Origin: a virus
Virus genome (UHGV): UHGV-0223590
Length of the DNA stretch: 10,609 bases
Reading direction: 5' to 3' (one strand)
Under the pieces are notes generated by a model that made no database searches, was not told where the DNA came from, and worked only from the letters and a program-made list of their open reading frames with translations. The position numbers and the translations under genes were made by a program. The first letter of the stretch is position 1, and each line of letters starts with the position of its first letter. Shown here one piece after another: positions 1,219 to 10,609 of this stretch.

Positions 1219-1294
1219 GGCCCTTTAGCTCAGTGGTGAGAGCGAGCGACTCATAATCGCCAGGTCGCTGGTTCAAATCCAGCAAGGGCCACCA
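1219..1294 (+). tRNA. ileZ: tRNA-Ile2 (anticodon CAU, ileX/ileZ-like; formally Met by anticodon alone)
   Basis: 76 nt, GGCCCTTTAGCTCAGTGGTGAGAGCGAGCGACTCATAATCGCCAGGTCGCTGGTTCAAATCCAGCAAGGGCCACCA. Cloverleaf folds by hand: 7-bp acceptor stem GGCCCTT/AAGGGCC, anticodon loop ctCATaa, T-loop TTCAAAT, encoded CCA. Closely resembles E. coli ileX as I recall it. Gene symbol is by analogy to the ileZ-argN-argO array of Stx phages. Confidence 0.85.
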
Positions 1295-2082: not shown

Positions 2083-2301
2083 GCTCATAATTCAGGCTGG
2101 CGATTATTGTCTGGCCGGCGGGAAGTTTGTTAAAAAATTTCGCATGGTGAATCCCCCTGTGCGGAGGGGTAATCAGCGAGTAGGTATATGGGATAATCGC
2201 GGATTCAGGTGCTGGTACTGAATTCACCGGGAGGCACCCGGCACCATGCAATGGCACATAGCGCCACTCTCCAGCCCCTCTCCGGAGGGGCTGTTTATAT
2301 T
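2083..2301 (+). repeat. Repeat copy B (~220 bp), diverged copy of 1615-1834
   Basis: Same block order as copy A, with substitutions and small indels. The terminal hairpin is identical (AGCCCCTC-TCCG-GAGGGGCT). Confidence 0.6.
2273..2301 (+). terminator. Putative intrinsic terminator (same hairpin, weaker GTTTATATT tail)
   Basis: Identical 8-bp stem and loop to 1810-1829, followed by GTTTATATT. Confidence 0.35.
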
Positions 2302-2907
2302 GATTTTGTCAGATGTGAGTAAACTCCTTATGGACTTTGTTGTTTTAGCCCATAAGGACATATTTGCAGAGTGCAACGGTTATTAAAGCATTCATTCAAT
2401 ACGTTATCTGTATTTGTAGGGCATTCCTGGCTGTTTTTGATTAAATTCCAGAATGTTTTATTGAATGGTACTACGTTGTAAATGGTTACAGGTAGCACTT
2501 TGTTATTGAGCATGATGCCTGTGTGAGTCAGTGTAAATATACTTTCAGGAGGTAAGAAAGCATCCGATTGATACCAGATTATTAATTTTATTTTACTCCA
2601 TATGACTGAAAAAGATATTCCGCATGATGGCTGGATAACTGTATCAATCACAATCCACTTCATTTAGTTTCCTTGTTTATGCCTTGCTGGTGATGTTCTG
2701 AAAAGTATAAATGATATTTTTGAATTAAACCATAGAGCAGAATTATTTTTCTGATGTTGTTTATTGTTTATTTAAATGCAGGGTGGTTTATATCTCGTCT
2801 TGTAGTTTATCCATGCATATCTGCTTGATGATGAGGTTTTTATTTAAGGTATGGTTTTGTGTTTTTTCTGTATTACATGTCAGGTATTTTAAAGAATCAT
2901 TTTTCAG

Positions 2908-4401
2908 ATGGTGGAAAGAACCATGGCATTTAAACACTATGATGTTGTCAGGGCGGCGTCGCCGTCAGATCTTGCGGAAAAGCTGACACATAAACTGAAA
3001 GAGGGCTGGCAGCCGTTTGGTAGTCCGGTGGCCATAACCCCTTATACCCTGATGCAGGCGATTGCAGCAGAAGGTGATGTGGTCGTCAGTGGTGCAACTG
3101 AGCCGGAGTGGTACTACGTCATCGTACTGGCCGGGCAATCCAATGCCATGGCTTACGGTGAAGGGCTTCCGCTTCCGGATTCATACGATGCGCCCCATCC
3201 GCGCATTAAGCAACTGGCCCGTCGTAACACAGTGACTCCCGGTGGTGAAGTATGCGTATTTAACGACATCATTCCTGCTGACCATTGTCTGCATGATGTT
3301 CAGGATATGAGTACGATTAATCATCCCCGGGCTGACCTGAGCAAAGGGCAGTACGGCTGTGTCGGACAGGGCTTACATATTGCCAAAAAACTGCTTCCGT
3401 ATATCCCTAATAACGCGGGGATCCTGCTGGTACCATGCTGTCGTGGTGGTTCGGCATTCACCCAGGGCACGGAGGGGACATTCAGCGAGTCCACGGGGGC
3501 CAGTCAGGATTCGGCTCGCTGGGGAGTGGGTAAGCCGTTATATCAGGATCTGCTTTTCCGCACGAAGGCAGCATTGCAGAAAAACCCGAAAAACGTTTTG
3601 CTGGCGATATGCTGGATGCAGGGGGAATTCGATATGACGAATGCCAGTTACGCCCAGCAGCCAGCAGCATTTCTTGCAATGGTACAGCAGTTCCGTGCTG
3701 ACCTTGCCGGGCTGGCGGCGCAGTGTCACGGTGGAAGTCCGGCATCAGTCCCCTGGATTTGTGGCGACACGACATACGCGTGGAAACAAGAACACGGTAC
3801 GCAATATGAAGTGGTATATGGTGCATATAAAGGTAAAGAATCCCAGCAGATTTATTTTGTTCCCTTTATGACCGATGGTAGCGGAGTTAATACACCGACA
3901 AACAACCCGTCAGAAGATCCTGATATTGCCGGGTCTGGTTATTACGGTTCGGCATCCCGAACGAACAAAAACTGGGTATCATCAAATCGCCCGACGCATT
4001 TCAGCTCATGGGCGCGTCGTGGCATTATTCCCGATCGTATGGCAACTGCTATTCTGAACGTAGCCGGTCGCACCTTAGCCTTCATTAGTGGTAAGGCACC
4101 GGAAATCAAACCCTCGCCCGGCGGCGACACGCCATCGGGGCCGTCTGAAGATGCATCCGTACGCACAATCTCCCTGTTGCCGACAGCCGGAGATGCTGCT
4201 GCGCAGGGCTGGAGCATTAAGAATGGCGGAATTCAGTTGTCAGATGGTGTATTTAAGATCACCAAGCAGAGCAATAAAACCTGGTCCCTGATGCATCCGG
4301 TGGATGACGCAGTCTCCCTGCTGACACGGGGTGGCAGACTGAGCTGTAAGTTTCGACTGTCAGGCGCACTGACCAACAACCAGTTCGGTCTGGGAATTTA
4401 G
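2908..4401 (+). CDS. nanS-p: Prophage-encoded NanS-p-like sialate O-acetylesterase (DUF1737-like N-terminal domain + SGNH/DUF303 esterase)
   Basis: 497-aa ORF. The N-terminus (MAFKHYDVVRAASPSDLAEKLTHKLKEGWQPFGSP...) matches the small DUF1737-type domain typical of these phage proteins. An SGNH block-I-like GQSNAMAYGEG follows. Sitting downstream of the late-region tRNA array is the canonical nanS-p position in Stx/lambdoid prophages. An alternative start at ATG 2923 (MAFKHYDV) is plausible. Confidence 0.8.
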   Translation: MVERTMAFKHYDVVRAASPSDLAEKLTHKLKEGWQPFGSPVAITPYTLMQAIAAEGDVVVSGATEPEWYYVIVLAGQSNAMAYGEGLPLPDSYDAPHPRIKQLARRNTVTPGGEVCVFNDIIPADHCLHDVQDMSTINHPRADLSKGQYGCVGQGLHIAKKLLPYIPNNAGILLVPCCRGGSAFTQGTEGTFSESTGASQDSARWGVGKPLYQDLLFRTKAALQKNPKNVLLAICWMQGEFDMTNASYAQQPAAFLAMVQQFRADLAGLAAQCHGGSPASVPWICGDTTYAWKQEHGTQYEVVYGAYKGKESQQIYFVPFMTDGSGVNTPTNNPSEDPDIAGSGYYGSASRTNKNWVSSNRPTHFSSWARRGIIPDRMATAILNVAGRTLAFISGKAPEIKPSPGGDTPSGPSEDASVRTISLLPTAGDAAAQGWSIKNGGIQLSDGVFKITKQSNKTWSLMHPVDDAVSLLTRGGRLSCKFRLSGALTNNQFGLGI

Positions 4402-4610
4402 TGCTGGCGAGCCTTGACGGGCTGATCTCCTATGCAGCAAAGGTTCATCTCAAAGTAAGACGAACGCTATGACAAACCAAGATTCTATAGACCTATCTGA
4501 TCTTCGTGGAATGGTCAGTTTTCCAGACAAAAGGTAATCACCATAGTCGTATGGCTATGAATCTTGTTGCTGCAGATAAGCATTTTGTGATTGAAGTGGT
4601 CAAATCTCTC

Positions 4611-4639
4611 AAATGCAGTAAAATGCAGTGCGCTATAAT
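4611..4639 (+). promoter_or_regulatory. Putative sigma70 promoter for the 206-aa gene (perfect -10 TATAAT at 4634-4639, weak -35), overlapped by a tandem 9-bp direct repeat
   Basis: TATAAT lies 28 nt upstream of ATG 4668, with SD AAGGAG at 4655-4660. AAATGCAGT occurs at 4611-4619 and again at 4621-4629. Confidence 0.4.
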
Positions 4640-4667
4640 TCAATAACGGAGGGAGTAAGGAGAAGTC

Positions 4668-5288
4668 ATGAAAGATCAAGATGTTAGGTTCGCGGTGCAT
4701 CATAAGCTTTTGAAAGAATCGCATTTAGATCCAGACTGCCTTGTGGTCGATGAATTTTCCATATCCCTTGGCGCCAGTAGAGCAGACATTGCTGTAATAA
4801 ATGGTGTTATACACGGGTACGAGCTCAAAAGTGAATATGACTCTTTGGAGCGTTTGCCTCTTCAAATCAAGCATTATTCTTCTGTAATGGACAAGGTTAC
4901 TCTTGTCGTAGCTGAGAAACACCTTGAGGGAGCATTAAAGTTAATTCCAGGTTGGTGGGGCGTTAAAACGGTTTCTGTTGGGCCAAAAGGCGCCATTCTT
5001 ATAAAGCACATGCGTGGAGAAAAGCTTAATCGAAACCATGACACATTGATGCTCGCTCAATTGCTTTGGAAAGATGAATGTATCGACGTACTTGAACGAT
5101 GGGGCTATTCCAAAGGAATCAAAAGCAAGCCCCGATTTGAGTTATGGAATATTATTGCGGAAAATATTCCAATAGCGAATCTCAGGCTTGAAGTCAGAAC
5201 AGCCTTAAAGAAACGCGTAGGCTGGAAAGTTAAGGCTTGGCAGGCTGAGTCTGCGCCAACCAATAAAGCTGTCTCACGACTAACGTAA
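4668..5288 (+). CDS. Hypothetical protein, 206 aa, with PD-(D/E)xK-like motif arrangement (putative nuclease)
   Basis: ORF with strong SD (AAGGAG, 7-nt spacer) and an upstream TATAAT. Carries ...VVDEFSI...SRADIAVING..HGYELKSEYD..., i.e. E29, D39, E52-x-K54 spaced like a restriction-endonuclease-fold core. Lies in AT-rich DNA unlike the flanking phage genes. Confidence 0.65.
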   Translation: MKDQDVRFAVHHKLLKESHLDPDCLVVDEFSISLGASRADIAVINGVIHGYELKSEYDSLERLPLQIKHYSSVMDKVTLVVAEKHLEGALKLIPGWWGVKTVSVGPKGAILIKHMRGEKLNRNHDTLMLAQLLWKDECIDVLERWGYSKGIKSKPRFELWNIIAENIPIANLRLEVRTALKKRVGWKVKAWQAESAPTNKAVSRLT

Positions 5289-6297
5289 TATGGTGCGTAT
5301 GTGCAACTTTACGCCATTCTTTAGAGCCGCCAGATTTGTTAGCGCCTAATGATCTTTGGTAAATGTAATCATCCCCCCAACTAAATTTGGAGCCAAAGAC
5401 TTGATACTCTGGCGAACTAACAAGGGTAGTACATAAGTTTTTAGTTTGGCCCCATCCATTTCCTTTAACTGCGGTACCTTTTACAAAGATCCATGAGGTA
5501 TCGTTCGAATATCTCACTGAGACATACTGAGACATGAAGCGTGGGTCTACGCTCGTAATGGTAGAGCTAGCGGTGGGATAATCACTAAAACTTGGCGTTC
5601 TTCCATTGCTAAAATTCTGTACTACGTACATCCAAAGATCGTATTCATGGCGCGGAATATGATGAACTTGATGTTGCGGTATCCCTGCCTGTGATGCCGG
5701 GTATGCGGTTGAAGATAAAATCAAGTTTCTCCACGGAGCTTGGCCTGATAATGTGTTGACCATGCTTAATGCTTGTTGTTTTAAACTATCAGTTGCGTTT
5801 TGAATATCTCCAAAATCAATGATTACATCAATTAAACTAGGATGAATATTTAAGTGGTTAACCAGACTTGTGAATTGGTGCCATGTCTGGGGGGTGATAG
5901 ATATAGCGAGCCCATTGATTAAGTTGCGTTGAACAGCATGTATATAGTTTGTTGAATATGCGGGAGAAACAACAGGGATAATTTCCTTACCATTTACTCT
6001 AGCATCTTGGATACACATATCTAGAGGATGATGGCGGCTCGAACCATGTTTATCTAAATATTTAACATCCAGCAAAACAGGACGATTGGCTTTCCAGGAT
6101 GCCGCAAGGTTAATACCGAAGTCAGATAAGTAAGAACTCAAACTCTTCTTGTAGCATTCGTTTTCATAATCCCAGTCTATGTCTGGAATGGTAATGATCG
6201 GAGTAAAACCAGAGAGCGTAGTTTGATCTAAAAGCATCAGAGATTCATATTCAGCAGGCTTCCATTTCAGCTGTGGATAATATTGATGTTGACTCAT
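5230..6297 (-). CDS. Hypothetical protein, 355 aa, partner of the 206-aa gene (convergent, 59-bp 3' overlap)
   Basis: Long minus-strand ORF with a strong SD (AAGGAG, 6 nt before ATG, seen as CTCCTT at 6303-6308 on +). AT-rich like its partner. No catalytic motif I can assign by eye. Confidence 0.65.
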   Translation of the reverse strand: MSQHQYYPQLKWKPAEYESLMLLDQTTLSGFTPIITIPDIDWDYENECYKKSLSSYLSDFGINLAASWKANRPVLLDVKYLDKHGSSRHHPLDMCIQDARVNGKEIIPVVSPAYSTNYIHAVQRNLINGLAISITPQTWHQFTSLVNHLNIHPSLIDVIIDFGDIQNATDSLKQQALSMVNTLSGQAPWRNLILSSTAYPASQAGIPQHQVHHIPRHEYDLWMYVVQNFSNGRTPSFSDYPTASSTITSVDPRFMSQYVSVRYSNDTSWIFVKGTAVKGNGWGQTKNLCTTLVSSPEYQVFGSKFSWGDDYIYQRSLGANKSGGSKEWRKVAHTHHITLVVRQLYWLAQTQPAKP

Positions 6298-6327
6298 TAA
6301 AACTCCTTAAAATCTTTACTTATCCTA

Positions 6328-6356
6328 AGTATAGTGTTATGGCGTAACGCCAATTG
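6328..6356 (-). promoter_or_regulatory. Putative promoter/operator for the 355-aa gene (-10 TATACT; inverted repeat TGGCG-N3-CGCCA in spacer/-35 region)
   Basis: On the minus strand TATACT lies about 30 nt upstream of the start codon. The palindrome TGGCGTAACGCCA (6340-6352) sits immediately upstream of it. Confidence 0.3.
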
Positions 6357-6520
6357 TTTTTATACACTTGAAAACATTGGGAAAAGTTGAGCTATATCTA
6401 AATTTACAAAATTGGATGTTATAGAAATCGAGGTTTCAACTAGGCATGGAACTGCAAAATTTTTAATGCCTGCACGCGAAAGTCGTTGGCGGGTCCTTTC
6501 CGGTGATCCAGATCGTTACG

Positions 6521-6532
6521 GGGCGGCGACCT
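6521..6532 (+). other. cos: cosN (lambda-type cohesive end site, GGGCGGCGACCT)
   Basis: Exact match to the lambda 12-nt cohesive end. The preceding CTTTCCGGTGATCC...GTTACG resembles the lambda right end, and the following CTCGCGG(T)TTTTC(A)CTATTTATGAAAATTTT matches the lambda left end almost base for base. Distance to the Nu1 start (187 nt) is close to lambda's. Confidence 0.9.
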
Positions 6533-6707
6533 CGCGGTTTTTCACTATTTATGAAAATTTTTCAGGGAAAATCGTGTCGGTACTTCTCGAATATAACTTT
6601 TTGTTTTTTTTAATATTGCATTCATAAATGTCCGACATGAAAGTGTCCGAAAATGCCTTTTTTTGGCGTTTTCATGTCGGGCCTTGTATTTGATAATGAG
6701 TTGTTCT
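6533..6707 (+). promoter_or_regulatory. cosB-like region (terminase small-subunit binding sites) between cosN and Nu1
   Basis: Repeated motif related to CGACATGAAA in both orientations: TGTCCGACATGAAAG at 6629-6643, TGTCCGAAAATG at 6645-6656, and the inverted TTTTCATGTCGGG at 6669-6681. Position corresponds to the lambda R3-I1-R2-R1 region. Confidence 0.6.
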
Positions 6708-7256
6708 ATGAAGGTTAATAAAAAGAGGCTTGCCGAAATTTTCAACGTGGATCCGCGAACGATTGAACGCTGGCAGTCTCAGGGGCTCCCTTGCGTCTCC
6801 AAAGGCAGTAAGGGCATTGAATCTGTATTTGATACTGCCATGGCAATTCAGTGGTATGCGCAGAGGGAAACTGATATCGAAAACGAAAAGCTCCGCAAAG
6901 AACTGGCCGATTTGCGTGCGGCAGCGGAGTCAGATTTACAACCCGGCACCATTGACTATGAACGCTACCGGCTCACAAAAGCGCAGGCAGATGCGCAGGA
7001 ACTGAAAAATGCCCGTGAAGACGGAGTGGTGCTGGAAACTGAACTATTTACCTTCATTCTGCAACGTGTGGCACAGGAGATTTCGGGGATACTTGTGCGT
7101 GTGCCGTTGACATTACAGCGTAAATATCCGGACATTTCACCATCACACCTTGATGTGGTGAAAACTGAAATCGCGAAAGCCTCCAATGTTGCAGCTAAGG
7201 CCGGTGAAAACGTGGGCGGGTGGATCGATGATTTCAGACGCACAGAAGGCAGCTAA
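6708..7256 (+). CDS. nu1: Terminase small subunit (lambda gpNu1 homologue)
   Basis: [28 protein letters not shown]...[48 protein letters not shown]... is colinear with lambda Nu1 (MEVNKKQLADIFGASIRTIQNWQEQGMP...). Start moved to the internal ATG 6708 (MKVNKK) rather than the track's 6663, matching the lambda N-terminus and the distance from cosN. Confidence 0.9.
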
Positions 7257-9346: not shown

Positions 9347-9915
9347 AACGAACGCCTGTCCTGATTGATGTGAACGGCGTTCCGCTTCGGGAGAGCCTCA
9401 GCTACAACGGTGGCGGTGCAGGATTTGGCGGGCAAATGGCAGAGTGGTTGCCACCCTCGCAGAGTGCCGATGCGGCCCTGCTGCCCGCGTTGCGTCTGGG
9501 GAATGCCCGTGCAGATGATCTGGTGCGCAATAACGGAATAGCGGCCAATGCGGTGGCCCTGCATAAGGATCACATTGTCGGGCATATGTTTCTGATTAGC
9601 TACCGTCCGAACTGGCGCTGGCTGGGGATGCGGGAGACCGCGGCAAAAAGTTTTGTCGATGAGGTGGAGGCGGCCTGGTCAGAATACGCAGAAGGGATGT
9701 TTGGTGAGATCGACGTGGAAGGGAAACGCACGTTTACGGAATTTATCCGTGAAGGTGTGGGCGTTCATGCGTTTAACGGCGAAATCTTTGTGCAGCCGGT
9801 CTGGGATACGGAGAGTACGCAACTGTTTCGTACGCGTTTTAAAGCCGTGAGTCCGAAACGGGTGGACACGCCAGGACACGGTAGCTGCCAGTATCAATAT
9901 CAAGCCGGGCCATGA
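9343..9915 (+). pseudogene. B: Portal protein gene B, truncated (N-terminal ~180 codons only)
   Basis: MKRTPVLIDVNGVPLRESLSYNGGGAGFGGQMAEWLPP...[15 protein letters not shown] is near-identical to the lambda gpB N-terminus. Homology stops at about 9882 and the ORF ends 11 codons later ([10 protein letters not shown]). Lambda gpB is over 500 aa. Confidence 0.85.
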
Positions 9916-10609
9916 TTATTATTTTTATATCCGCAGTGTGAATACAGTCGGCAAATCGGCATTCGTGGAGGCTGTCGGTCGGGCGAGCGATGATGCGGAA
10001 GGTTACCTGGATTTTTTCAAAGGAGAAATCGGGAAAACACATCTGGCCCAGGAGCTGTGGACGCAGATTGATAACGGTCAGCTTGCGCCGGACCTGGCTG
10101 AAATCAGGACGTCCATTACGAATGTCAGCAATGAAATCACGCAGACCGTCAATAAAAAACTGGAAAATCAGAGTGCGGCAATCCAGCAGATACAGAAAGT
10201 TCAGGTTGATACAAATAATAACCTGAACAGCATGTGGGCCGTGAAACTGCAGCAGATGCAGGACGGACGCCTTTATATTGCGGGTATCGGTGCCGGTATT
10301 GAGAATACGCCAGCAGGAATGCAGAGTCAGGTGCTGCTGGCGGCAGACAGGATTGCGATGATTAATCCTGCGAATGGCAACACAAAGCCGATGTTTGTTG
10401 GTCAGGGCGATCAGATATTTATGAATGAAGTGTTCCTGAAATATCTGACGGCTCCCACCATTACCAGCGGCGGTAATCCTCCGGCATTTTCCCTGACACC
10501 GGACGGGCGGCTGACGGCGAAAAATGCCGATATCAGCGGTAACGTGAATGCGAACTCCGGGACGCTCAACAACGTCACGATTAACGAGAACTGTCGGGTT
10601 CTGGGAAAA
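9884..10609 (+). pseudogene. J: Tail fibre/host-specificity protein J, 5'-truncated internal fragment (no start codon; runs off window end)
   Basis: A frame different from B translates to [47 protein letters not shown]...[76 protein letters not shown]..., colinear with the distal part of lambda gpJ. Open to the window end. An in-frame stop at 9848-9850 lies just upstream and there is no ATG near the junction. Confidence 0.85.

What the first reader, a model, noticed from the sequence alone, without database searches (positions are those of the whole stretch)
4440..6480. AT-rich two-gene cassette in the lysis-gene position: candidate uncharacterised defence or abortive-infection module
An AT-rich ~2-kb island sits between nanS-p and cos. 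It carries two ORFs with their own strong ribosome-binding sites and promoter-like elements, arranged convergently with overlapping 3' ends. Neither resembles holin, endolysin, spanin, Bor or Lom, which normally occupy this spot. The region between the late-regulatory module and cos is a recognised moron/accessory hotspot in lambdoid prophages, and such hotspots are enriched for anti-phage systems. The size pairing (about 355 aa plus about 205 aa, one with a nuclease-like core) recalls prophage-associated pairs such as Beta-protein/sce7725 with sce7726, and gop-beta-cII-type modules. I cannot confirm any family membership without a search.
Basis: partly seen in the sequence, partly recalled or inferred. 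Interest (0 to 1): 0.8.

Follow-up and report, generated by a model that had tools for sequence, protein, structure and literature searches.

The report
Gop-less beta/cII nuclease defence cassette
The AT-rich insert is a mobile two-gene module (a conserved DNA-cutting enzyme plus a fast-evolving barrel-shaped partner) that forms the bare core of two proven anti-phage systems, and it survives intact in a decaying E. coli prophage that has lost its lysis genes.

Summary
A 2.0-kb AT-rich insert (about 4473-6482; GC 0.405 against 0.53 in both flanks) carries two convergent genes whose 3' ends overlap by 59 bp. The 206-aa protein belongs to the P4 cII / sce7726 family and has a PD-(D/E)xK nuclease fold with an invariant active-site motif. 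The 355-aa protein belongs to the P4 beta / Pfam Beta_protein family and is a TIM barrel.

The "lysis-gene position" is an artefact. An intact sister prophage has holin, lysozyme and Rz upstream of the cassette. This window has lost them in a 2.3-kb deletion and has lost about 15 kb of head and tail genes in a second deletion.

Comparative work shows that cII and beta form a near-obligate pair: 78 of 80 species genomes and 50 of 50 other loci, spanning Proteobacteria, Firmicutes, CPR bacteria and an archaeon. The pair is always convergent and usually overlaps by 38-62 bp. P4's gop is absent everywhere else. Some loci carry the PD-lambda-2 genes upstream of beta, which links the two validated systems Gop-beta-cII and PD-lambda-2 through one shared core.

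The most likely function is anti-phage defence, with beta controlling the nuclease. The two-gene form has not been tested. I rate it a new variant of a known kind, of moderate interest.

The parts
4473..6482 (.). Mobile AT-rich two-gene cassette (insert relative to cassette-free lambdoid phages). The core conserved across genera spans about 4575-6440.
   Evidence: Left: P22-type Rz-rha homology ends at L001 20071, which is window ~4472. Right: phage 21 cos homology starts at ~6483. GC 0.405 against 0.53 in the flanks. Cross-genus homology limits.
4668..5288 (+). cII-like / sce7726-family gene (206 aa): a PD-(D/E)xK nuclease of the RecB/MmcB type followed by a C-terminal helical domain. Residues 188-206 are predicted disordered.
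5230..6297 (-). beta-family gene (355 aa): a family-specific TIM-barrel protein.
5230..5288 (.). 59-bp overlap of the two convergent 3' ends. No terminator or stable RNA structure lies between the genes.
   Evidence: Fold z-scores +0.54 and -0.60. Overlap is near-universal in homologous pairs, with a mode of 44 bp.
4601..4640 (+). Conserved non-coding block upstream of cII. It contains the direct repeat AAATGCAGT (4611-4619 and 4621-4629) and a perfect -10 hexamer TATAAT (4634-4639). Putative promoter and operator.
   Evidence: Nearly invariant in E. coli, Klebsiella, Edwardsiella and Pectobacterium cassettes whose coding identity is only about 80%. Sequence.
4657..4662 (+). Shine-Dalgarno AAGGAG, 5 nt before the cII ATG.
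6358..6401 (-). Two conserved non-coding blocks upstream of beta: TTAGATATAGCTCAACTTTT and TTTTCAAGTGTATAAAA, the latter with a -10-like TATAAA. Putative beta promoter region.
   Evidence: Conserved across four genera. Sequence.
6303..6308 (-). Shine-Dalgarno AAGGAG, 5 nt before the beta ATG (6297).
4398..4400 (.). Deletion junction (context only). nanS-p is cut at codon 497 and joined to the sequence downstream of Rz. Holin, YdfR, lysozyme and Rz are lost.
   Evidence: blastn against the intact prophage: window 1-4400 matches L001 13317-17720, and window 4398-9883 matches L001 19997-25482. L001 annotation.
6521..6532 (+). cosN (GGGCGGCGACCT) of the lambda/21-type packaging site (context only). 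It leaves about 220 bp upstream of beta, which is too little for a gop gene.
   Evidence: Phage 21 cos matches.

Best explanation
The insert is a self-contained mobile module of two convergently transcribed genes.
- One encodes a RecB/MmcB-type PD-(D/E)xK nuclease (P4 cII / sce7726 family).
- The other encodes a TIM-barrel protein (P4 beta / Beta_protein family).

It is the bare core of a module whose decorated forms are two validated anti-phage systems: Gop-beta-cII of satellite P4, and PD-lambda-2.

Most likely it protects the lysogen against superinfecting phages. By analogy with its relatives, the targets would be lambdoid or P1-like phages. I propose that beta, the fast-evolving partner, senses a phage cue and controls the strictly conserved nuclease, which then cuts DNA.

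Shown here: family memberships, folds, active-site conservation, the near-obligate pairing and overlap architecture, the link to both named systems, and the prophage context with its deletions.

Inferred: that the two-gene form defends at all, that the nuclease is the effector, and that beta is the sensor or regulator.
For: Identity: PF14350 8e-56, NF033832 2e-54, PADLOC cll 4e-31, PD-Lambda-2_C 4e-32 and beta 3.5e-10. P4 has the same layout: beta is 355 aa, convergent with cII, and the module sits next to cos.

Pairing: 50/50 loci fetched from the beta side and 78/80 species genomes fetched from the cII side have the convergent pair. The 3' overlap mode is 44 bp.

Beta diverges roughly twice as fast as cII. 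Examples are 53% against 28% identity and 45% against 23%. This is the pattern expected of a sensing surface.

Beta is the shared hub:
- L106 has PD-lambda-2 A (1e-37), B (7e-140) and C (7e-42) plus a convergent cII.
- About 21 alpha-proteobacterial loci have DUF6932, PD-lambda-2 B and C, plus cII.
- L133 has B and C without cII.

Published function of relatives:
- Gop-beta-cII protects against lambda and P1 (PMC9122126).
- Its toxicity is triggered by phage gene orf184 (bioRxiv 10.1101/2023.04.06.535777).
- PD-lambda-2C is needed for defence but not for toxin neutralisation (PMC9519451).

Context: the pair sits in accessory slots of prophages, satellites and plasmids in many genera.

Retention: both ORFs are intact and match the large E. 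coli clusters (beta 100%, 412 member sequences; cII 99%, 203 member sequences) while adjacent phage genes were deleted.

Regulation: the non-coding regulatory blocks are conserved across genera.
Against: - No experiment exists on any gop-less two-gene pair in the literature I could search.
- gop, the only component shown to be toxic in P4, is absent.
- PD-lambda-2 defended from a clone with no room for cII, so a contribution of cII to defence has never been shown.
- Beta has conserved polar residues at barrel-strand ends and could be an enzyme rather than a sensor.
- As far as I recall, P4 cII was named for a lysogeny phenotype. I could not check this because Ghisotti 1990 is not held.
- As far as I recall, standard PADLOC and DefenseFinder rules require all three genes, so they would not call this locus. 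I did not verify this.
Confidence: 0.6

Rival explanations
1. Plain toxin-antitoxin or addiction module with no role in phage defence. The nuclease is a constitutive toxin and beta is its antitoxin. The pair stabilises the prophage or plasmid that carries it.
For: - gop and beta were described as a toxin-antitoxin-like pair.
- The pair also occurs on large plasmids.
- It associates with HigB and Xre-peptidase genes.
- Overlapping convergent transcripts could give antisense control.
Against: - Three of 79 informative genomes keep an intact cII with all catalytic residues while beta is absent or frameshifted.
- At 355 aa, beta is large, fast-evolving and TIM-barrel-shaped, unlike typical antitoxins.
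- PD-lambda-2C is not needed to neutralise the toxin but is needed for defence.
- The convergent layout is atypical for type II toxin-antitoxin operons.
Confidence: 0.15
2. A function for the carrying phage itself, such as lysogeny control, recombination or genome processing. The nuclease would act as a phage exonuclease or regulator.
For: - Sources name homologues 'regulatory protein', 'exonuclease' or 'MmcB-like DNA repair protein'.
- Some pairs lie next to integrase or repressor genes.
- As far as I recall, P4 cII mutants have a lysogeny phenotype (not checked).
Against: - The slot varies widely among phages: Rz-cos, the nin region, next to the repressor, next to the integrase.
- The pair occurs outside phages, on rhizobial and Rhodococcus plasmids, and in an archaeon and CPR bacteria.
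- It is AT-rich foreign cargo with its own conserved promoters.
- It is kept intact while essential phage genes decay.
Confidence: 0.1
3. A restriction-modification-like pair. Beta is a TIM-barrel enzyme that marks self DNA, as the DNA transglycosylase DpdA does, and the nuclease cuts unmarked DNA.
For: - Convergent gene pairs are common in type II restriction-modification systems (general knowledge).
- Beta has conserved acidic, basic and aromatic residues at barrel-strand C-termini.
- The nuclease resembles restriction enzymes in fold.
Against: - DpdA ranks 50th among generic TIM barrels, so the similarity is not specific.
- The conservation pattern is the reverse of typical restriction-modification systems: here the nuclease is highly conserved and the partner diverges fast.
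- Beta also partners with a membrane toxin and with HigB/Xre-peptidase genes, which fits a regulator better.
Confidence: 0.08
4. Inert cargo: a decaying remnant in a defective prophage with no current function.
For: The surrounding prophage has two large deletions and cannot lyse the cell or build particles.
Against: - Both ORFs are full length and match proteins found in hundreds of E. coli sequences at 99-100% identity.
- 126 complete genomes carry the cassette at 99.9% identity.
- The active-site residues are intact.
Confidence: 0.03

Closest known systems
Gop-beta-cII of satellite phage P4 (validated anti-lambda and anti-P1 system; Rousset 2022)
   Same: - A beta homologue of identical length (355 aa).
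- A cII homologue with the same nuclease motif.
- A convergent beta/cII arrangement.
- A position next to cos in an accessory hotspot.
   Different: - There is no gop gene and no room for one.
- The proteins are only 22% and 27% identical to P4's.
- cII lacks P4's C-terminal ~60 aa.
- The genes overlap by 59 bp, whereas in P4 they are 27 bp apart.
- The carrier is a lambdoid prophage, not a P4-like satellite.
PD-lambda-2 (HigB-like A, Xre-M78 peptidase B, beta-like C; Vassallo 2022)
   Same: - The window's beta scores better against PD-Lambda-2_C models (4e-32) than against PADLOC 'beta'.
- Natural loci exist that combine PD-lambda-2 A, B and C with a convergent cII (L106, L131, L134).
   Different: - Components A and B are absent from the window.
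- The cloned, active PD-lambda-2 fragment had no cII.
- The match to the C model covers only residues 141-344.
MmcB / RecB / Cas4-type PD-(D/E)xK nucleases (including 3dnx, the Can2 nuclease domain and NucS)
   Same: - The E...D...ExK...QxxxY motif set is present.
   Different: - No significant sequence match to any solved structure.
- It is an obligate partner of a TIM-barrel protein.
- It has an extra conserved C-terminal helical domain (W134, E137, R177, K181, R183).
beta / 'CII phage-like protein' pair of Escherichia phage Rac-SA53 (KU052037)
   Same: A gop-less convergent pair in a lambdoid E. coli phage, with a 41-bp overlap.
   Different: - About 30% identity to the window's beta.
- It sits in the nin region near hok/mok rather than at Rz-cos.
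- It was labelled by its depositors only; no function was tested.

Membership tests
Pfam PF14350 Beta_protein | Full-length match above the gathering score (27 bits) | tested here: met
   190.4 bits, 8.2e-56, model positions 1-342 of 342.
NCBIfam NF033832 sce7726 family (equivalent to Pfam PF26915 Phage_P4_cII) | Full-length match above the curated cut-off (70 bits) | tested here: met
   184.1 bits, 2.3e-54, model positions 1-182 of 184. The 99%-identical cluster P0001 carries a precomputed PF26915 hit.
NCBIfam sce7725 family | Match of the larger protein to the sce7725 model | tested here: not met
   No hit at E <= 1 for the window's beta. No NCBIfam hit for seven diverse beta proteins, including P4 beta and two from Myxococcota.
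Gop-beta-cII system | beta homologue present | tested here: met
   PADLOC beta 3.5e-10. BLASTP against P4 beta gives 22% identity, 3e-7, and the same length.
Gop-beta-cII system | cII homologue present and convergent with beta | tested here: met
   PADLOC cll 4.3e-31. 27% identity to P4 cII, 1e-18. Layout.
Gop-beta-cII system | gop (133-aa membrane toxin) directly upstream of beta | tested here: not met
   tblastn and phmmer find nothing in the window, in L001 or in about 130 related loci. Only about 220 bp lie between the beta start and cosN.
Gop-beta-cII system | Protection against phage (lambda, P1), and toxicity triggered by orf184 | not testable with these tools
   Requires cloning and phage challenge.
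PD-lambda-2 system | Component C (beta-like) | tested here: inconclusive
   PDLC03984 4.4e-32, but the match covers only residues 141-344 in two stretches.
PD-lambda-2 system | Components A (HigB-like) and B (Xre-M78 peptidase) upstream of C | tested here: not met
   No such ORFs in the window. The region upstream of beta runs into cos. A and B are present in relatives L106, L131 and L133.
PD-(D/E)xK nuclease superfamily | Core alpha-beta-beta-beta-alpha-beta fold with the catalytic D...(D/E)xK motif | tested here: met
   [not shown]
PD-(D/E)xK nuclease superfamily | Metal-dependent nuclease activity | not testable with these tools
   Requires biochemistry.
TIM-barrel fold (beta protein) | (beta/alpha)8 barrel | tested here: met
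   [not shown]
Type II toxin-antitoxin operon | Two small co-directional genes, with the antitoxin neutralising and autoregulating the toxin | tested here: not met
   The genes are convergent and overlap. Beta is 355 aa. Orphan intact cII genes exist. Toxicity itself is not testable here.
Lambdoid lysis or accessory genes (holin, endolysin, spanin, Bor, Lom) | Profile match to any of these families | tested here: not met
   No such hits in Pfam, NCBIfam or PHROGs.

The most novel reading that the evidence does not exclude
The beta + cII-nuclease pair is an ancient, self-sufficient anti-phage core. It comprises about 5,500 protein clusters across bacterial phyla and at least one archaeon. The conserved nuclease is the real effector and the fast-evolving TIM-barrel protein is the phage sensor. 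On this reading, the named systems Gop-beta-cII and PD-lambda-2 are lineage-specific elaborations of this core that add extra effectors or regulators (gop; HigB or DUF6932 with an Xre-M78 peptidase). The near-universal 3' gene overlap would be part of its control logic.
Probability: 0.4. Interest if true: 0.7.

Novelty: new variant of a known kind. Interest (0 to 1): 0.55.

Why it matters
Two validated defence systems are currently treated as unrelated three-gene toxin-antitoxin-like systems. Here they share a hub protein (beta) and often a second conserved gene (the cII-like nuclease) that published models ignore.

The minimal two-gene form in this window is widespread:
- 126 of 5,426 complete E. 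coli genomes;
- 213 of about 100,000 species genomes;
- about 5,500 protein clusters at 50% identity.

As far as I recall, standard defence-finder rules need all three genes and would not call it. It is also experimentally untouched in the literature I could search.

It is a 2-kb fragment with native promoters. That makes it a simple test case for three questions. Is the nuclease the effector? What does the TIM-barrel partner sense? Does the conserved convergent overlap regulate the system?

The locus also shows accessory cargo being kept intact while the prophage around it decays.

Tried and rejected
- Consensus promoter and terminator scan: not enriched over shuffles. Replaced by cross-genus footprinting.
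- Repeat search in the cassette: only short, chance-level pairs. The palindrome at 6340-6352 is not conserved in other genera.
- RNA structure in the 3' overlap: none.
- gop homologue or remnant: none by tblastn, blastn or phmmer.
- sce7725 membership of beta: no hits.
- Sequence search of the PDB with both proteins: only noise.
- Fold search of beta: generic TIM barrels only, so no functional lead. The AFDB library was unavailable.
- Longer cII homologues with possible domain fusions: no Pfam domains.
- Exact deletion junction: absent from 5,426 complete E. coli genomes, so the source strain is not identified.
- Literature:
  - 'sce7726' appears only in passing annotations.
  - No relevant papers for PF14350, gop_beta_cll, PF26915, sce7725, Phage_P4_cII or Beta_protein.
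  - Ghisotti 1990 and Brenes & Laub 2025 are not held. I could not check the P4 cII phenotype, or whether the 2025 prophage screen tested this cassette.
  - The 2023 preprint gives no per-gene suppressor data in its text.
- A third conserved gene across all lineages: none. The upstream partners are lineage-specific.
Full report
OBSERVATION

The window holds two ORFs at the stated place: 4668..5288 on + (206 aa) and 5230..6297 on - (355 aa). They are convergent and their 3' ends overlap by 59 bp. GC falls to 0.35-0.44 across 4350-6750, against 0.50-0.58 on both sides. The cassette has GC 0.405, against 0.53 in both flanks. Both genes have AAGGAG Shine-Dalgarno sites 5 nt from the ATG. Sigma-70-like sites are not enriched over shuffles (4 found, 5.6 expected), so that part of the description has no statistical weight on its own.

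IDENTITY

The 355-aa protein is a full-length Pfam Beta_protein (PF14350, 8e-56). The 206-aa protein is a full-length NCBIfam sce7726-family member (2e-54). PADLOC calls the pair 'cll' (4e-31) and PD-Lambda-2_C / 'beta' (4e-32 / 3.5e-10). PHROGs lists both as unknown function. RefSeq already annotates the identical genes as 'sce7726 family protein' and 'beta family protein' in 126 of 5,426 complete E. coli genomes, at 99.9% DNA identity. No sequenced phage record carries this cassette; only the phage 21 cos region matches.

CONTEXT AND THE 'LYSIS POSITION'

An intact sister prophage (L001, strain DA33133) has this gene order: Q, DNA methylase, two tRNAs, IraM, a 618-aa SASA esterase, holin, YdfR, lysozyme, Rz, then the cassette, then the small and large terminase subunits.

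Alignment shows that the window lacks L001 17721-19996. That is a 2,276-bp deletion with its junction at window 4398-4400. It truncates nanS-p to 497 aa and removes all lysis genes. The window also lacks about 15 kb from portal to J, with the junction at about 9882. Pfam confirms the flanking genes and the truncated portal.

The cassette's native slot is therefore Rz-to-cos. Homology to cassette-free phages ends at about 4472 and resumes at about 6483. The exact junction is not present in any complete E. coli genome, and one strain has a different deletion at the same place.

In Klebsiella, a cassette with about 78% beta and 85% cII protein identity sits at the same functional junction (spanin | cassette | HNH, terminase) in a prophage with unrelated flanks.

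RELATION TO P4

P4 encodes gop (133 aa), then beta (355 aa), convergent with cII (264 aa; RefSeq 'sce7726 family protein'), next to cos. The window's proteins are 22% and 27% identical to P4 beta and cII. No gop homologue exists in the window or in L001. Only about 220 bp separate the beta start from cosN at 6521-6532.

Published results on the relatives:
- Gop-beta-cII protects against lambda and P1 (PMC9122126).
- It is triggered to kill by phage gene orf184 (bioRxiv 10.1101/2023.04.06.535777).
- PD-lambda-2 has a HigB-like A component, an Xre-peptidase B component that is toxic alone, and a C component 'related to a P4 phage antitoxin'. C is needed for defence but not for toxin neutralisation (PMC9519451).

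THE PAIR IS THE CONSERVED UNIT

Starting from cII homologues, all 11 places examined in Vibrio, Enterobacteriaceae, Acinetobacter and Pasteurella prophages or satellites show the convergent pair without gop. Starting from beta in viral contigs, and adding the loci fetched earlier, 50 of 50 loci have it.

A scan of one genome per species found relatives in 213 species. The best 80 span Proteobacteria, Myxococcota, Firmicutes, Bifidobacterium, Chloroflexi, Elusimicrobiota, CPR, Melainabacteria and an archaeon. In 78 of these 80, beta lies convergent right after cII. The 3' overlap is mostly 38-62 bp, with a mode of 44 bp, and none has gop. The exceptions are:
- one contig end (L058);
- one truly solitary cII (L057);
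- two loci counted in the 78 where beta is split by a frameshift (L059, L084).

In the three loci without an intact beta (L057, L059, L084), the cII active-site residues are intact.

The cII family has 5,524 cluster representatives at 50% identity. The pair also occurs on rhizobial, Rhodococcus and Acinetobacter plasmids, and in Gordonia, Mycolicibacterium and Pasteurella phages. It occurs in phage Rac-SA53 as well, where the depositors had already labelled the genes beta and CII-like.

LINK TO PD-LAMBDA-2

No third gene is shared by all lineages. Some lineages do have genes coupled upstream of beta:
- In a CPR genome (L106) these are PD-lambda-2 A (1e-37) and B (7e-140, full length). Its beta matches C (7e-42) and a cII lies convergent to it.
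- About 21 alpha-proteobacterial loci and a Sinorhizobium plasmid have a different small first gene (DUF6932 in the alpha-proteobacterial loci, an unnamed 132-aa gene on the plasmid), then PD-lambda-2 B and C, plus cII.
- A Rhizobium plasmid has B and C but no cII in any frame.
- The active ECOR42 PD-lambda-2 clone had no room for cII.

So cII almost never occurs without beta, but beta can serve other partners. Beta is the hub and the window carries the bare core.

FOLDS AND CONSERVATION

Neither protein has a sequence relative in the PDB.

Across 82 distinct pairs, E29, D40, E52, K54 and Q66 are invariant and Y70 is present in 81/82. This is the RecB/Cas4-type E-D-ExK-QxxxY motif set. Beta keeps only sparse polar residues (E16, D77, D161, R216, D239, Y263, H336). 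Beta diverges about twice as fast as cII, although the two identities are correlated (rho 0.56).

REGULATION

Non-coding blocks are nearly invariant across four genera whose coding identity is only about 80%:
- Upstream of cII: the AAATGCAGT direct repeat plus TATAAT, at 4611-4640.
- Upstream of beta: two blocks at 6358-6401.

The overlap region has no terminator or stable RNA structure, so convergent transcripts should collide or pair. Whether that matters for regulation is not known.

INTERPRETATION

The best reading is a prophage-borne anti-phage module in which beta controls a conserved nuclease (confidence 0.6 for the overall statement; the mechanistic roles are inferred).

Rival explanations:
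- a pure addiction module (0.15);
- a function in the phage's own life cycle (0.10);
- a restriction-modification-like pair (0.08);
- inert cargo (0.03).

The orphan intact cII genes, and the PD-lambda-2C genetics, argue against a simple model in which cII is the toxin and beta the essential antitoxin.

The main weakness is that no gop-less pair has been tested. I also could not read Ghisotti 1990 or Brenes & Laub 2025.

VERDICT

It is a gop-less variant of a known defence kind. The 'lysis position' is a deletion artefact. Interest is moderate (0.55). It rises if the two-gene core is shown to be autonomous and to unify Gop-beta-cII with PD-lambda-2.

Noticed in passing
window 4398-4400 (junction); nanS-p ORF 2908-4401: A 2,276-bp deletion relative to the intact sister prophage. 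It truncates the SASA/nanS-p esterase at 497 of 618 aa and removes holin, YdfR, lysozyme and Rz, so this prophage cannot lyse its host. The exact junction is absent from 5,426 complete E. coli genomes. Strain DLI.5a (NZ_CP103972.1) has a different deletion at the same spot.
   Followed up: yes
window ~9882-10594: A second deletion of about 15 kb. The lambda-family portal gene is cut after about 180 aa and joined to a gpJ-like tail-fibre fragment (91.6% identity to L001 40526-41238). All head and most tail genes are lost.
   Followed up: partly
window 2250-2900 (ORF 2328-2663, minus strand): A second, even more AT-rich island (GC 0.346) carries a 111-aa gene. PGAP annotates the syntenic gene in the sister prophage as anti-adapter protein IraM. 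It looks like another accessory gene (moron) between the tRNAs and nanS-p.
   Followed up: no
window 1219-1294 and 1304-1380: Two phage-borne tRNA genes lie downstream of the DNA methylase. ARAGORN calls them tRNA-Met (CAT) and tRNA-Arg (TCG). PGAP calls the first tRNA-Ile in the sister genome, which suggests a lysidine-modified ileX-type tRNA.
   Followed up: no
window 4611-4629: Tandem direct repeat AAATGCAGT-A-AAATGCAGT, sitting where a -35 element would be for the TATAAT at 4634-4639. It is almost invariant in the Klebsiella, Edwardsiella and Pectobacterium cassettes, so it is a candidate operator for an unknown regulator.
   Followed up: partly
window 6340-6352: A perfect palindrome, TGGCGTAACGCCA, followed by a T-run and flagged as terminator-like on the + strand. 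It lies in the beta leader region and is not conserved in the cassettes of other genera.
   Followed up: partly
L106 3968-7129; L131 3890-7614; L134 2336-5639: These natural loci combine PD-lambda-2 components with a convergent cII-like nuclease. The first gene is HigB-like in L106, DUF6932 in L131 and an unnamed 132-aa gene in L134, followed by an Xre-M78 peptidase and beta. This four-gene architecture is not described in the PD-lambda-2 paper.
   Followed up: yes
L057 4001-4567; L059 1127-2821; L084 3962-5624: Orphan or near-orphan cII genes with intact catalytic residues. Beta is absent in Xenorhabdus koppenhoeferi and frameshifted in X. vietnamensis and Brevundimonas nasdae. These are draft assemblies, so sequencing errors are possible.
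   Followed up: partly
window 6627-6685: A 27-nt imperfect inverted repeat (TGTCCGACATGAAAG... / ...TTTCATGTCGGG) straddles the start of the Nu1 gene. It probably corresponds to phage 21-type cosB terminase-binding sites.
   Followed up: no
L135 5299-5891 (Gordonia phage Powerball): A HicA/HicB toxin-antitoxin pair lies about 0.5 kb from the beta/cII pair and near the integrase. This suggests a small defence or accessory island in an actinophage.
   Followed up: no
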